Source of the DNA: Octopus vulgaris
Taxonomy: Eukaryota
Direction: 5' to 3'
DNA length: 64,000 nucleotides
NCBI GenBank assembly: GCA_951406725.2
Contig: OX597820.1
Span: forward strand, 104,098,001-104,162,000
The notes below the pieces were generated by a model. The model ran no database searches and was not told the DNA's origin. It saw only the letters and a list, made by a program, of their open reading frames with translations. Below, one piece after another: positions 2,205-50,367 of the stretch. Numbering within the stretch: the stretch's first letter is position 1; every line of letters starts with the position of its first letter. Made by a program: the position numbers and the translations under genes.

Positions 2205-2664
2205 TTAAGAAAGATCCTTCAATTAAACAAATTGTCAAGATTGTAGATAATTCTTCTTTGGCAAAAGGCATCCAACCCTTGTGTTACGATTGAGTTAATT
2301 AAACCGAAAATCTTAAACTTTTATCTAAAGTACCAAGCGTTACTAAAATCTGTGAAAAATAGAAAAGGCCCGGTATATATATATAAAAGTTTAAGATTTT
2401 CGGTTTAACTAATATATATATATTTAGCGTTACTAAAATCTGTGAAATATATATATATTAGTTAAACCGAAAATCTTAAACTTTTATATATATATACCGG
2501 GCCTTTTCTATTTTTCACAGATTTTAGTAACGCTTGGTACTTTAGATAAAAGTTTAAGATTTTCGGTTTAACTAACTCAATCGTAACACAAGGGTTAGAT
2601 GCTTTTGCCAAAGAAGAATTATCTACAATCTTGACAATTTGTTTAATTGAAGGATCTTTCTTAA
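2205..2664. repeat. 460-bp nested palindrome bounded by TTAA
   Basis: ~220-bp arms are near-perfect reverse complements; each arm has its own internal inverted repeat. Confidence 0.95.
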
Positions 2665-3273: not shown

Positions 3274-3527
3274 TATATTAATCGAAGTGTACAGTTTTAT
3301 ATATCCATTACAGACGGTCTTATCGATTGGTTTCGCACTAAGGGTTCAACGGAGTGTTAGGTAGCAGTCCAATAATGCAATCCTGCGTTTTTCAGAGTGC
3401 CTTCTCTGAAAAGCGCAAGGTTACATAATTGGACTGTTACCTAACACTCCGTTGAACCCTTAGTGCGAAACCGATCGATAAGACCGTCTGTAATGGATAT
3501 ATAATGCTATACACTTCAATTAATATA
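3274..3527. repeat. 254-bp hairpin, probable inverted Penelope-like LTR pair
   Basis: ~124-bp arms with 6-nt loop tgcctt; hammerhead-like motif at 3403-3483. Confidence 0.85.
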
Positions 3528-22174: not shown

Positions 22175-22705
22175 AGAACCATCCAGAAGGATAGATATAT
22201 CATTGAGAATAGATTTAGCTGGTGGTCTTCTTATTTTTATTCTAGCTTTTGGTGAAGCAGAAGAGGTTAGAAAGGGTCAAGTTGTGAAAACAATATTTCG
22301 GCCTAGCTAAAGGCATCTGGAAAATGTAAACCTGCTGTCAGAGGAAAACCATTGTTCCACCATGGGAACAGTTCTGTTAGTTTAAATTTCGCTATGGTGG
22401 ATCGAATCCACTTCATGAATGCAAGATTCACTACATATATATATATATGCATAACTACAGATTCCTGCAACACCCCGATTTTGGGTGATCATAATTTTCA
22501 GAAAAATAGATATTTTCAAATGAAATTTTCTACGAATATGTGTTATATCATGTAGATTCCGAATATAGAAAACTTATTGGGTGGGAAATTTCGGAAAGTT
22601 CACCGGCGTCCACTTCAATTCGTCTTAACTTTCAAGAAAATAGCAATTTTTTAATGAAATTTTCTACAAATATACTTCGGACTATGTAGAACTTTTTTAA
22701 TTACA

Positions 22706-22738
<33 letters not shown>

Positions 22739-23515
22739 GTATGTGTGTGTGCGTGCGTGCGTGCGTGCGCGTGTGTGTGTGTGTGTGTGCGTGCGTGTGT
22801 GTGTGTGAGAGTGAAAGCGGGGGAGACTAGAAATCTACGGATGCACAAACGCACAAAACGGAGAAAATGAAACAAATATGGACGACTTGTTCCAAAACAC
22901 CCCCGAGTGGGGAACGGTCCTCAAAAGTAACCGGCAATGGTTTTCCAAACAAATTCCTATGTTCTCGGAATCTACATAGTCCGAGGTATATTTGTAAAAA
23001 AATTCATTAAAAAATTGCTATTTTCTTGAAAGTTAAGACGAATTGAAGTGGACGCCGGTGAACTTTCCGAAATTCCCCCCACCCCCACCCCTCCTAAAAT
23101 ACTTTACCCTATAAGTTTTCTATATTCGGAATCTACATGATATAACACATATTCGTAGAAAATTTCATTTGAAAATATCTATTTTTCTGAAAATTATGAT
23201 CATCCAAAATCGGGGTGTTGCAGGAATCTGTAGTTTTGCATATATATATATATGTAGTGAATCTTGCATTCATGAAGTGGATTCGATCCACCGTAGCCAA
23301 ATTTAAACTAACAGAACTGTTCCCATGGTGGAACAATGGTTTTCCTCTGACAGCAGTTTTACATTTTCCAGATGCCTTTAGCTAGGCCGAAATAATGTTT
23401 TCACTACTTGACCCTTTCTAACCTCTTCTGCTTCACCAAAAGCTAGAATAAAGATAAGATGACCACCAACTAAATCTATTGTTCTCAATGATATATCTAT
23501 CCTGGATACCTCTTT
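22175..23515. mobile_element. Foldback element with ~500-bp inverted arms
   Basis: 22187-22690 is the near reverse complement of 22970-23505; mirror ORFs 22352-22555(+) and 23133-23336(-). The spacer contains (GT)n. Confidence 0.9.
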
Positions 23516-25845: not shown

Positions 25846-26373
25846 GGATCTTTTCCTTTTGAACGGCAGATGTCAACACAATTTCTAGTTAACTAAACAC
25901 TTTTAAACTTCGTATACTGGTAGAATGTGTTTATAAAGCATCATTTTCTCTTAGTTTTATTGAGAAAATTCTATAGTTTGTAAGATATTTCGTCTGAAAA
26001 TTTGAGCATTTCGGCAATTTTAACCAATCGATTACCTCCATTCAACTAAAATCATTTGCTGCGTCTAAAACTGAGACAACATCCTGTAACTAACCCTAAA
26101 CCTCCCCTCTAACCCTAACCCTAATTTTTTCTTTCTTAATTGTTAAATTAATTTAATTCCATTGCTTTAGTTTTTTTTACACGCGTAACAATTAAATTAA
26201 TTTAACAATTAAGAAGAAAAAATTAGGGTTAGGGTTAGTTACAGGATGTTGTCTCAGTTTTCTCAAGAAAGCCAAGAGAAAAAATGTTTTATTTTGACAC
26301 ATTCTACCAGTATACGAAGTTTTAAAGTGTTTAGTTAACTAGAACTTGTCTGCCGTTCAAAAGGAAAAGATCC
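25846..26373. mobile_element. Related GGATCTTTTC-TIR palindromic MITE
   Basis: TIRs ggatcttttccttttgaacggcaga / tctgccgttcaaaaggaaaagatcc; internal CCCTAA and TTAGGG arms; flanked by the 20-bp direct repeat tttatctgatttgattaatg. Confidence 0.85.
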
Positions 26374-47279: not shown

Positions 47280-48581
47280 AGGCACTGAATAACATCTCCC
47301 CTCCCCAAGCCTCACACCACATTCCTTTCCCGGTTTTCAGAGTTGGCACTGTCAATGTAGGCACACTGAAAGATAGGTCTAGTGAGATTGTAGAGATGCT
47401 TGAAAGGAGACGGGTTGATGTATGCTGCATACAAGAGGTAAGATGGAGAGGAGCTTCAGCTAGGGTCCTCACAGGCAAGACACATAGGTATAAAATCTTC
47501 TGGCAAGGTAACATGGATGGAGTAGGGGGTGTAGGCATACTTCTTGTGGAGAATGGGTGGATAAGGTCATATAGGTTGTCAGGGTATGCAATAGGTCATA
47601 GAGTTTGTCAGGGTATTCCTAACTACATAGTTGATAGCTTCCACTGTGACCAAGTCTGCAGTGGGGGTGGATGCTCAGAGAGTGTTACCACTAGAATAAA
47701 ATAGCCTGGGCAAAGTTCAGAAAGCTTCTACCCCTTCAGAGTGAAAGGTAAATTGTATGATGAATGTGTGCGAACTGACATGCTTCACAGCAGTAAAACA
47801 TGGGCTGTTGAAGACATGCGTAGGCTCAAAAGAAATGGAGCTAGCATGATCTGCTGGATGTGTAATGTCAGTGTGCTCACATGACAGAGTGTAAGCGCCC
47901 TGAGAGAAATGTTGGATATAAGAAGCATTGGATGTGGCATGCAGGAGAAATGTTTGCATTGGTATGGTCATGTACTATCTTCTTGAGGATAGTACATGGT
48001 TGCGGAAAGCTGTGTGAAGAAGTGTCACTCCCAAACAGTGGAAGGAACCTGGGGTAGAGGGAAACCCAGGAAGACATGGGATGAGGTGGTGAGGCATGAC
48101 CTTCAAATGTTGAGCTTCACAGAGGCAATGACAAAAGACTGATACCTCTGGAGATATGCTGTGACTGAGAAGACCCAGAAAATAAAGTGAGCTCTCAGCT
48201 GTAACCTACACCAGTGTTGCATAATCAGCCCACTCAAAATTACCTTGGATTGTAGGGCGACATGCCATGCTTGAGGAGACCTATTGAGTCAAGTACATCA
48301 AAATCAAATGGAAATTATAGTTGTGATCCCCATGCCAGTGGCATGTAAAAAGCATCATCTGAACATGGCCGATGCCAGCGTCGCCTTGACTGGTTTCCAT
48401 GCTGGTGACACGTAAAAAAGCACCCACTACACTCTCGGAGTGGTTGGCATTAGGAAGGGCATCCAGCTGTAGAAACACTGCCAGATCAGACTGGAGCCTG
48501 GTGCAGCCCCCTGGCTTGCCAGACCCCAGTCGAACTGCCCAACCCATACCAGCATGGAAAACGGATGTTAAACGATGATGA

Positions 48582-48584
<3 letters not shown>
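47280..48584 (+). mobile_element. Internally deleted RTE (BovB-like) LINE
   Basis: APE start FRVGTVNVGTL...RRVDVCCIQEVRW...GVGGVGIL, joined near 47620-47650 to the C-terminal region ending GRGKPRKTWDEVVRHDL. 3' UTR ends gttaaac(gat)n. Confidence 0.8.
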
Positions 48585-48629
<45 letters not shown>

Positions 48630-48635
<6 letters not shown>

Positions 48636-48888
48636 GTCTGGGGAGAGTCATTTTTTTTTGTGCCTTATAATTTAACACACTCACCAGTAAAATTTCCACT
48701 TTTTGTTTTTATTTTCCTAAAATTTTCATTGCATCTTGCAACCTTTTCAGTAGTCTTGACTATTGGAAAGGTTGCAAGACGCAACAAAAATTTTAGGAAA
48801 ATAAAAATAAGAAACAATTGGAAATTTTACCGGTGAGTGTGTTAAATTATAAGGCACAAAAGGAAAATGACTCTCCCCAGACACAACA
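48630..48888. repeat. 259-bp hairpin, probable inverted Penelope-like LTR pair
   Basis: Arms meet at agtc-tt-gact (48756-48757); hammerhead-like motif next to the centre; (TA)n flanks. Confidence 0.85.
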
Positions 48889-50367
48889 GAATATGCTTCA
48901 ACACACACTCAAATAAAGAATCTTGCAAATGAAATATATATATATATTCGGAGTGGTTGGCGTTAGGAAGGGCATCCAGCTGTAGAAACACTGCCAGATC
49001 TGACTGGCCTGGTGCAGCCTTCGGGCTCCCCAGACCCCAGTTGAACCGTCCAACCCATGGAAAGCGGACGTTAAATGATGATGATACACACATATCCTCA
49101 TCATAATCCATTTTCCATACTGGCATATGTTGGACAGCTTCACAGGAATTGGCAATGCCAGGGACCTCACCAGGTTCCATAGTCTGTTTTGGTTTGGTTT
49201 CTACAGCTGGTAGCCCTTCCTAACACCAACCTCTTTACATAGTATACTGGGTGCTTTTTTATGTGGCTTCATCAGCAATGCTTTTTATGTGACACCATCA
49301 CCGGTGCTTTTTATATGGCACTATCACTGGTGCTTTTTATGTGGCACTATATCTCTATTCATGTGCATACATACACACACACTCACTAGGCTTCTTTAGT
49401 TTCCATCTACCAATTTCATTAGAAAGTATTGATCAATCTTTGGCTATAAAAGAGTACATCAGCTGACAGCATGCCCACGGTGGAACCAAACCTGTAACCA
49501 TGTAGTGAACTTCTAAGCCACACAGCTATGCCTTAGCCTGGAAACTGTGTGAAGCCTGTTGCATAGGCATTCAGTTGAGTGAATAACTGAATGCTTCTCA
49601 GTGAAACTAACAGAGGATCCCTCGTAGCTGTAAACACTAACAAGGTCGGTCTGACTTGCTTATGTGTCAACTAGTAAGACTGATATTAATTACGCTGCCA
49701 CTTGATTTGTTGTTGAACAAGCTGAGACAAGTGTTGTTTAAGAAGAAAACAAAAAGGAAAACTCTTGGTCTAACACTTCATATTAAAAGAGCTTATGTCT
49801 TTCCTTAAACTTGCAACTTAATTATTAACTGAGTGCTAACTATGTACTATATTTAGCTAAATTTTATGAGAAGGTAAAGAACACACTTGAACTAAAGGCA
49901 CAACAGTGATTATTGCAGAATTTGAAATCTTTACCTTATGCTAGCATCTGTCTGGCAATTTTTAACTTTAATGTAGCAATAAGTAGTGGGTTTTTTTTTT
50001 CTTTTCATATATATATATATATTTGTAAGTTTACTATGATGCCTTGTCCAGTTATGGTATCTTAGCAGTAGAAATGGTATTGAGTCTTTGATGAGCTATT
50101 AAAACCTCAACATTATAAGGGAAGGAAAATGTGAAGTGTCGATGGTCATACCTTTCCCAGTGATATTGATAATGAGTTGATGATAGATTAGAGGTTGGTT
50201 GTTGCAGTGGGTGAGTCAGACAGGGAAAACAGCAAATGTGAGCTGAGTTGAAGCAGTATTGGGTAGTTAATCTTTGGTTTTTAAATTGTTTGGTGTGGAT
50301 GCATGCTGAAAATGATAACCAGCCAACTGCTAGTGCATATCTCTCTCTCTCTCTCTCTCTCCCTCCT

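What the first reader, a model, noticed from the sequence alone, without database searches (positions are those of the whole stretch)
48630..48888. Second, unrelated hairpin with the same architecture (fold-back point just 5' of a hammerhead-like core)
Seen: combining both arms gives CTA-(C/T)TGAAAA-G-GTTGC-aaga(t/c)-GCAAC-GAAA-ATTT-TAG, with stem I CTA/TAG, a 5-bp stem II and palindromic AATT stem III. The right arm runs on to an AATAAA and (TA)n. The sequence is unrelated to 3274-3527 but the geometry, the A at core position 8 and the (TA)n flank recur. A U3-A8 pair would be a compensatory version of the C3-G8 core pair. Inference: a recurring class of short ribozyme-centred palindromic retro-insertions, made by fold-back during reverse transcription.
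Basis: partly seen in the sequence, partly recalled or inferred. Interest (0 to 1): 0.75.

Follow-up and report, generated by a model that had tools for sequence, protein, structure and literature searches.

The report
Two-armed Penelope retrotransposon end fragment
This hairpin is one decayed copy, among thousands, of the end repeat of a Penelope-type jumping gene, pasted in as a head-to-head pair; its predicted self-cutting RNA motif carries an already described variant, so it is largely ordinary.

Summary
The locus is a 5'-truncated insertion of a Penelope-like retrotransposon (PLE) family with at least 3,399 copies. Longer copies carry the same end on an RT + GIY-YIG ORF, whose start codon lies in the right arm (48867). 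In 90 copies taken by position, 69 have an inverted arm. Its outer end is fixed about 56 nt short of the 3' end (the PLE 'tail'), and 41 of 69 show target duplications (mode 12 nt). The family core is U3-A8, published for PLE hammerheads. The A8 at 3274-3527 is not its family's state (G8). Inner ends do pile up 0-17 nt 5' of the core, and a third family looks similar, but a sister family's hotspot lies about 60 nt away. So the hotspot is likely the RNA's 5' end, not ribozyme action. The inverted arm is usually the longer one, which argues against plain fold-back of one cDNA and fits two priming sites. The scan has reported this architecture elsewhere in this genome. Side find: a related family with a natural G3-C8 core.

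The parts
48630..48761 (-). Inverted copy of the pLTR, from the inner priming site (about -56 from the element's 3' end) to about -198
   Evidence: Self-alignment; outer end at -55 to -67 in 62 of 69 inverted arms
48758..48935 (+). Forward copy: pLTR plus tail, to the family's fixed 3' end (this copy has a short deletion in the tail)
   Evidence: 3' end within 8 nt of the fixed end in 83 of 90 copies
48752..48761 (.). Junction AGTC-TT-GACT; GACT (48758-48761) fits both arms because the element has a local palindrome AGTC-AA-GACT 5' of the core
   Evidence: Sequence, coordinates, family column counts
48760..48796 (+). Minimal type I hammerhead-like motif, right arm; family core U3-A8; this copy has A6>G and G12>A, predicted inactive
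   Evidence: stems I and II appear in the MFE fold, z -2.4
48717..48753 (-). Same motif in the inverted arm; C3.A8 mismatch and G10.1.U11.1
   Evidence: Only hit of my descriptor scan (stem II >=5 bp) in the window
48867..48935 (+). Start of the PLE ORF (MTLPRHNRICFNT, then frameshifted in this copy); the ORF start overlaps pLTR and tail
   Evidence: copies that run on into the ORF
48889..48935 (+). PLE 'tail', present on the forward arm only
48584..48629 (.). (TA)n target, left side; no TSD can be read in it
48934..48947 (.). (TA)n target, right side

Best explanation
This is a decayed, 5'-truncated insertion of an endonuclease-positive Penelope-like retrotransposon, made of a forward end repeat with tail and an inverted copy of the same repeat, likely written by the element's own RT/GIY-YIG protein priming from both nicked target strands. 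Shown: family size, link to an RT + GIY-YIG ORF, two fixed outer ends about 56 nt apart, target duplications, (TA)n targets, a U3-A8 family core, and an inner-end hotspot 0-17 nt 5' of the core. Inferred (about 0.6): the enzyme makes a staggered cut of about 12 nt; one nick primes at the tail end and the other at the inner site, as shown in vitro for an anole PLE (PMC11167929); both cDNAs run toward the RNA 5' end; they are joined through short microhomologies such as AGTC/GACT, with snap-back of one cDNA possible as part of the joining. Inferred (about 0.55): the hotspot is the transcript's 5' end, which lies a short, family-specific distance upstream of the hammerhead. The hammerhead is a passenger at the junction. 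It is predicted to cut weakly and only as a dimer or with protein help; both motifs in this copy are predicted dead.
For: Copy number: 3,399 exact matches to a 27-nt tail motif, control 0. The same end lies downstream of GIY-YIG/RT ORFs, with an inverted copy ending at -56 upstream (L082, L083). Pfam GIY-YIG 28.7 bits vs cutoff 22.6. A sister family has an intact 1,309-aa ORF, 61% identical over 672 columns. In the 90-copy sample: 69 with an inverted arm, 62 of 69 outer ends at -55 to -67; duplications of >=8 non-simple nt in 41 of 69, against 3 of 21 one-armed copies and 12 of 300 shuffled flank pairs, with 18 of 44 at 12 nt. Hotspot -185 to -204: 29 of 37 forward and 23 of 34 inverted arms that reach it end there, against 4-29% per 20-nt bin between -85 and -184. 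Young sister family (70 copies): outer end exactly -56 in 22 of 37 loci with an inverted hit; inverted longer 20, forward longer 3, equal 5; most junctions overlap by 2-6 nt; L257 and L272 have both arms ending on the same base with no loop. Literature: inverted pLTR + tail + TSD (PMC3846280, PMC8557442); U3-A8, bulge after A9, opposite-strand pairs 100-700 bp apart (PMC4209133).
Against: No RNA 5' end was measured. The cap-G test is inconclusive: 10 of 17 pooled, but 9 of 9 in the similarity-ranked loci and 1 of 8 in the positional sample. The longer inverted arm is also what self-priming on an antisense template predicts (PMC3846280 Discussion). Arms of one insertion are more alike than arms of different insertions (young 1.0% vs 2.7% mismatch; old 8.2% vs 10.8%); this fits one source RNA but equally fold-back or gene conversion. 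The RT call rests on motifs: Pfam RVT_1 is only E 0.008, below cutoff, and the intact sister ORF had no Pfam hit at E<=0.1. A weaker pile-up at -145 to -164 (13 of 53 forward, 15 of 52 inverted) overlaps the predicted cleavage site as well as the AAAATTTT palindrome. Later deletion at palindrome centres could bias arm lengths in the old family.
Confidence: 0.85

Rival explanations
1. Same element, but the second arm is made by self-priming: one antisense strand (antisense RNA or first-strand cDNA) folds back at a local palindrome, and the endonuclease later trims one arm to leave the tail.
For: Proposed in PMC3846280 (Discussion). Local palindrome at the hotspot. An antisense strand would carry the loop, giving a longer inverted arm, as in most copies. 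Arms share variants.
Against: Forward arm longer in 17 of 69 old and 3 of 28 young copies; zero-loop junctions L257 and L272; one-armed copies stop at the same hotspot; in vitro RT starts at both tail boundaries on sense RNA (PMC11167929). A cDNA primed at the 3' end and folded back cannot give an inverted arm longer than the forward arm.
Confidence: 0.25
2. The hammerhead itself sets the fold point (cleavage or RT arrest), defining a ribozyme-centred class.
For: Hotspot just 5' of the core in this family; in a third family 6 of 9 opposite-strand motif pairs lie 23-25 nt apart; secondary pile-up near the predicted cut site.
Against: The main hotspot is on the wrong side: cleavage would be about 30 nt 3' of U3, and RT would meet the structure from its 3' side. 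In the sister family 0 of 45 forward arms and 3 of 22 inverted arms end in the 40 nt around the core start; its cluster is at -260 to -299 with the core at -216. Hammerhead mutants did not change insertion in vitro (PMC11167929).
Confidence: 0.07
3. An independent non-autonomous ribozyme retroelement (retrozyme-like) copied from a small RNA circle.
For: Most copies are about 200 nt and lack the ORF body; animal retrozymes are linked to PLEs (bioRxiv 10.64898/2026.07.22.740005, passages).
Against: The sequence is continuous with the RT-EN ORF on both sides in long copies and contains its start codon; 5' ends are ragged, not unit-length; no tandem monomer arrays stood out in the loci printed, though I did not scan for them.
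Confidence: 0.04
4. An ordinary DNA MITE with terminal inverted repeats.
For: Palindromic shape; TA flanks.
Against: 21 of 90 copies have no inverted arm; arm lengths vary; one arm has a 56-nt tail; duplications are 8-18 nt rather than constant; link to RT.
Confidence: 0.01

Closest known systems
EN+ PLE insertions with inverted pLTR and tail (Adineta Pen2a/Pen2, PMC3846280; scheme in PMC8557442 Fig. 2 legend)
   Same: Inverted 5'-truncated copy at the 5' end, tail on one side only, TSD, pLTR containing the ORF start, palindrome at the inverted junction.
   Different: Tail about 56 nt (published 30-40), duplications around 12 nt (published 8-10); most copies are pLTR-only.
Minimal hammerheads of metazoan PLEs (Cervera and De la Pena 2014, PMC4209133)
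   Same: Short helix I, unpaired base after A9, G10.1-C11.1, palindromic 15.2-16.2, U3-A8 variant (Schistosoma Cercyon, about 1,300 hits), opposite-strand pairs.
   Different: The bulged base is G, whereas the supplement's consensus has H; N17 is U.
Poseidon of Anolis carolinensis (PAc), PMC11167929
   Same: Two RT start sites bounding the tail, AT-rich targets, hammerhead near the ORF start.
   Different: This family has a CX4CxxC linker, absent from Penelope/Poseidon; the ORF starts about 100 nt 3' of the core rather than at stem II.
Neptune/Nematis clades of PLEs
   Same: C-terminal GIY-YIG with CCHH, CX2-5CxxC linker, (TA)n targets.
   Different: DKG motif reads DKS; clade not fixed by a tree.

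Membership tests
EN+ Penelope-like elements | Single ORF with RT followed by C-terminal GIY-YIG endonuclease | tested here: met
   665-aa open frame in L081 with YVDD and GIY-YIG motifs; Pfam GIY-YIG above cutoff in L082, RVT_1 weak at E 0.008; intact 1,309-aa sister ORF
EN+ Penelope-like elements | CCHH motif with two cysteines between GIY and YIG | tested here: met
   VIYSIRCIEGACKDMNMTYIGET, then EH and HH downstream; definition from PMC8557442
EN+ Penelope-like elements | pLTRs in direct and inverted arrangement, containing the ORF start | tested here: met
   L241 has the repeat 5' and 3' of the ORF region; L082, L083 have inverted 5' copies; ATG at 48867
EN+ Penelope-like elements | Tail extension on one end only | tested here: met
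   62 of 69 inverted arms end at -55 to -67
EN+ Penelope-like elements | Target-site duplication | tested here: met
   41 of 69 vs 12 of 300 control; not readable at the window locus, which lies in (TA)n
EN+ Penelope-like elements | DKG motif N-terminal to RT | tested here: inconclusive
   Reads DKSG; other clades also modify it
Neptune/Nematis clade | CX2-5CxxC linker before GIY-YIG | tested here: met
   CTNDNCMVC
Neptune/Nematis clade | RT phylogenetic placement | not tested
   No reference PLE sequences were fetched; no tree built
Minimal type I hammerhead (PLE type) | Core with Watson-Crick 3-8 pair, GAAA, UH, helices I and II | tested here: met
   Met at family level; not met by either arm of the window copy
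Minimal type I hammerhead (PLE type) | Covariation across related families | tested here: met
   ORF-homologous families show U3-A8, C3-G8 and G3-C8, with different paired helix I and II sequences
Minimal type I hammerhead (PLE type) | Self-cleavage | not testable with these tools
   Needs an assay
DNA MITE | Constant TIRs at both ends and constant TSD | tested here: not met
Animal non-LTR retrozyme | Non-coding unit-length monomer in tandem arrays, circular RNA | tested here: not met
   Continuous with the ORF, ragged 5' ends; circular RNA not testable

The most novel reading that the evidence does not exclude
One PLE lineage in this genome has tried three Watson-Crick versions of the hammerhead 3-8 pair (C-G, U-A and a natural G-C in more than 6,000 matches), showing selection on the catalytic core. 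Its short two-armed insertions record in vivo two-site priming, with both cDNAs stopping at a capped transcript start just upstream of the ribozyme, so transcription starts of extinct PLE families could be read from junction hotspots.
Probability: 0.35. Interest if true: 0.5.

Novelty: new member of a known kind. Interest (0 to 1): 0.2.

Why it matters
As a locus it is a dead repeat. As a family it gives counts that bear on an open point of PLE biology, how inverted pLTRs and tails arise: two fixed priming sites, a stagger of about 12 nt, an inverted arm that is usually the longer, and a family-specific 5' stop. The cross-family 3-8 covariation supports selection for a working hammerhead fold in PLE RNA, whose role is still unclear in print (PMC8557442, PMC11167929).

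Tried and rejected
Rfam scan of the window: no hammerhead family at E<=10, only miRNA-like hits from repeats and hairpins. Cap-derived G at the 5' stop: suggested by the first loci, not reproduced in the positional sample; left inconclusive. An intron from GTGAGT to CCCCAG inside the pLTR: dropped, since the ATG homologous to the intact sister ORF lies before that AG; splicing was not tested in this family. RNA evidence: the run search, done with the young sister family and not this one, listed no holder on record as RNA; four guessed-RNA contig sets showed no start sites and no GT-AG joint, which is uninformative. No small-RNA or A-to-I reads were available. tblastn of the sister ORF against the window gave no hit at E<=1e-3. 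Single-motif folding is weak: z -0.8 to -2.4 for five motifs, and in two of them (L317 and the left arm) helix I does not form. One row of the alignment had wrong coordinates and was ignored. Literature searches for a natural G3-C8 core (supplement search, one of its files not searchable; Perreault 2011 section 8) found only engineered G3-C8; figures and most subscription journals were not visible, so novelty there is not established. Other palindromes in the window were looked at only briefly.

Full report
Observation. The window is G000:C7:104098001-104162000 of a 2.8-Gb genome; earlier scan notes call it an octopus, which I did not test. The palindrome at 48630-48888 is real: 87% over 276 columns in self-BLAST, 112 of 122 aligned arm positions identical, with the centre AGTC-TT-GACT at 48752-48761. 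The right arm has A6>G and G12>A; the left arm has C3 opposite A8 and C11.1>U. G12>A and C11.1>U are the two products of decay of one CpG (column counts).

Family. A DNA search gave 1,916 candidates, 40 scored. A 27-nt tail motif has 3,399 exact matches, control 0. Longer copies continue upstream through a CA-rich stretch into a GIY-YIG coding region. Longer loci show RT motifs plus GIY-YIG, a forward repeat at the 3' end and an inverted repeat ending at -56 at the 5' end (L082, L083). Pfam GIY-YIG passes its cutoff in L082; RVT_1 in L081 is weak, E 0.008. In L210, L221 and L227 the repeat runs on into the ORF. The ATG at window 48867 starts MTLPRHNRICFNT, homologous to the N-terminus of an intact 1,309-aa ORF of a young sister family, which is 61% identical to L081 over 672 columns; that ORF had no Pfam hit at E<=0.1.

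Positional sample. Of the first 100 listed tail matches I analysed 90 loci; three were dropped as second matches inside a locus already held, and the last seven were not fetched. Four loci (L110, L111, L115, L146) have identical arm coordinates and are probably duplicates of one insertion, so n is slightly inflated; ends come from BLAST and are good to a few bases. Coordinates count from the 3' end; U3 is at -187. An inverted arm is present in 69 of 90; its outer end is at -55 to -67 in 62 of 69; the forward 3' end is within 8 nt of the fixed end in 83 of 90. Non-simple duplications of 8 nt or more frame 41 of 69 two-armed copies, 3 of 21 one-armed copies and 12 of 300 shuffled flank pairs; 18 of 44 are 12 nt. 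(TA)4 or longer follows the 3' end in 18 of 90. This excludes a MITE and matches the PLE pattern in PMC3846280 (passages, Discussion) and PMC8557442 (passages).

The fold point. Of arms that reach -185, 29 of 37 forward and 23 of 34 inverted end within the next 20 nt, against 4-29% per bin between -85 and -184 (Fisher p about 1e-16 and 1e-13). But one-armed copies stop there too, and only 10 of 69 two-armed copies have both arms ending there. In a third family, found through the ORF N-terminus (39% identity), 5' ends appear 12-18 nt before helix I in the ten loci printed, and 6 of 9 opposite-strand pairs among the first 100 listed matches are 23-25 nt apart. In the young sister family (70 loci from the first 73 listed; three ends of full-length elements skipped) the core is at -216, no forward arm of 45 and 3 of 22 inverted arms end between -200 and -239, and the cluster is at -260 to -299 (7 of 42 forward, 9 of 16 inverted), with a second forward cluster at -100 to -119. 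The offset is family-specific and on the 5' side, whereas cleavage would be about 30 nt 3' of U3. I infer that the hotspot is the RNA 5' end, helped here by the local AGTC-AA-GACT palindrome that offers microhomology. The cap-G test was inconclusive: 10 of 17 pooled, 9 of 9 in similarity-ranked loci, 1 of 8 in the positional sample. A weaker pile-up at -145 to -164 overlaps both the predicted cut site and an AAAATTTT palindrome and cannot be assigned.

How the second arm is made. Fold-back of one cDNA primed at the 3' end gives an inverted arm no longer than the forward arm. Observed: inverted longer 36, forward longer 17, within 10 nt 16 in this family; 20, 3 and 5 in the young family, where arms are mostly 95-100% identical to the reference so later deletion is less likely. 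Young junctions mostly overlap by 2-6 nt, and two have both arms ending on the same base with no loop. The outer end is exactly -56 in 22 of 37 young loci with an inverted hit. This fits priming from both target nicks at two RNA sites, as shown in vitro for PAc, where both strands are cut and extended, the tail is the stretch between two RT starts, and hammerhead mutants do not alter insertion (PMC11167929, parts 1-2 of 4 read). Self-priming on an antisense template (PMC3846280) also predicts a longer inverted arm and stays a live rival. Arms of one insertion are more alike than arms of different ones, which does not separate the models.

The hammerhead. The family core is U3-A8 in 57 of 60 arms and 90 of the first 100 listed of 3,026 matches. 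PMC4209133 (parts 1-2 of 4, supplement passages) already reports U3-A8 in Schistosoma PLEs, the unpaired base after A9, palindromic 15.2-16.2, low in vitro activity as dimers, and opposite-strand pairs 100-700 bp apart; PMC3088659 (section 8) reports natural U3-A8. The motif sits 5' of the ORF start in related families with different but paired helices: C3-G8 in the sister lineage (canonical CUGAUGA in L327, A9>C in the young copies) and G3-C8 in the third family, 93 of the first 100 listed of 6,424 matches. The 3274-3527 family is canonical: 21 of 27 arms from 24 of 28 loci read CUGA(A/U)GA and 2 have A8, so the shared A8 is a coincidence of that one copy. I did not link that family to an ORF.

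Known or new. The architecture, the motif class and the U3-A8 variant are in print, and the scan has reported the same layout on other DNA of this genome (seen after my reading was formed). I file it as a new member of a known kind, Neptune/Nematis-like by its CX4CxxC linker, clade not tested by tree. What is added is quantitative (hotspot, arm asymmetry, 12-nt stagger) and the side observation of a natural G3-C8 core, for which searches found only engineered examples (PMC3884650, passages; PMC11167929); an earlier scan note mentions G3-C8 in a phage (unchecked by me). The bioRxiv preprint 10.64898/2026.07.22.740005 was seen as passages only and its supplements are closed; they could bear on the retrozyme rival. 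Interest 0.2.

Noticed in passing
L322, L336-L345 (e.g. G000:C4:22956248-22957180): PLE family with a natural G3-C8 hammerhead core (GUGAACA), a 7-8 bp helix I and a palindromic AAUAUU helix III; 6,424 motif matches, 93 of the first 100 G3-C8.
   Followed up: partly
L236, L237, L238 (e.g. G000:C15:42991500-43000500): Young sister PLE family with many intact ORFs of about 1,310 aa containing an Asn-rich insert (as described for Adineta PLEs), tandem units of about 4.6 kb, 1,787 tail matches, strong (TA)n targeting (57 of 70), and an A9>C core change absent from older relatives L326 and L327.
   Followed up: partly
L237, about -276 from the tail end: The sister family's 5' stop cluster lies just upstream of CAAAATGGC, which resembles a YY1-type promoter motif (recalled, not tested).
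   Followed up: no
window 3274-3527 (forward arm runs on to about 3590): Palindrome of a different repeat family with canonical C3-G8 core, long helix II, two common 3' end points and TA or CA flanks; PLE-like layout, ORF link not tested.
   Followed up: partly
window 2205-2664: 460-nt near-perfect palindrome (96%) with nested internal repeats and TA runs; no match to the four PLE end repeats tested.
   Followed up: no
window 22188-23503: Long inverted repeat, arms of about 500 nt at 92%, around a (GT)n-containing spacer.
   Followed up: no
window 26067-26261: AT-rich hairpin whose arms carry TAACCC/GGGTTA telomere-like hexamers.
   Followed up: no
window 48400-48583 and 48948-49085: Two copies of another interspersed repeat ending in (GAT)n flank the insertion; the insertion sits in the (TA)n that follows the first.
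   Followed up: no
L089, L101, L107, L186, L308: Junctions with nested short templated inversions or duplications, suggesting repeated template switching during joining.
   Followed up: no
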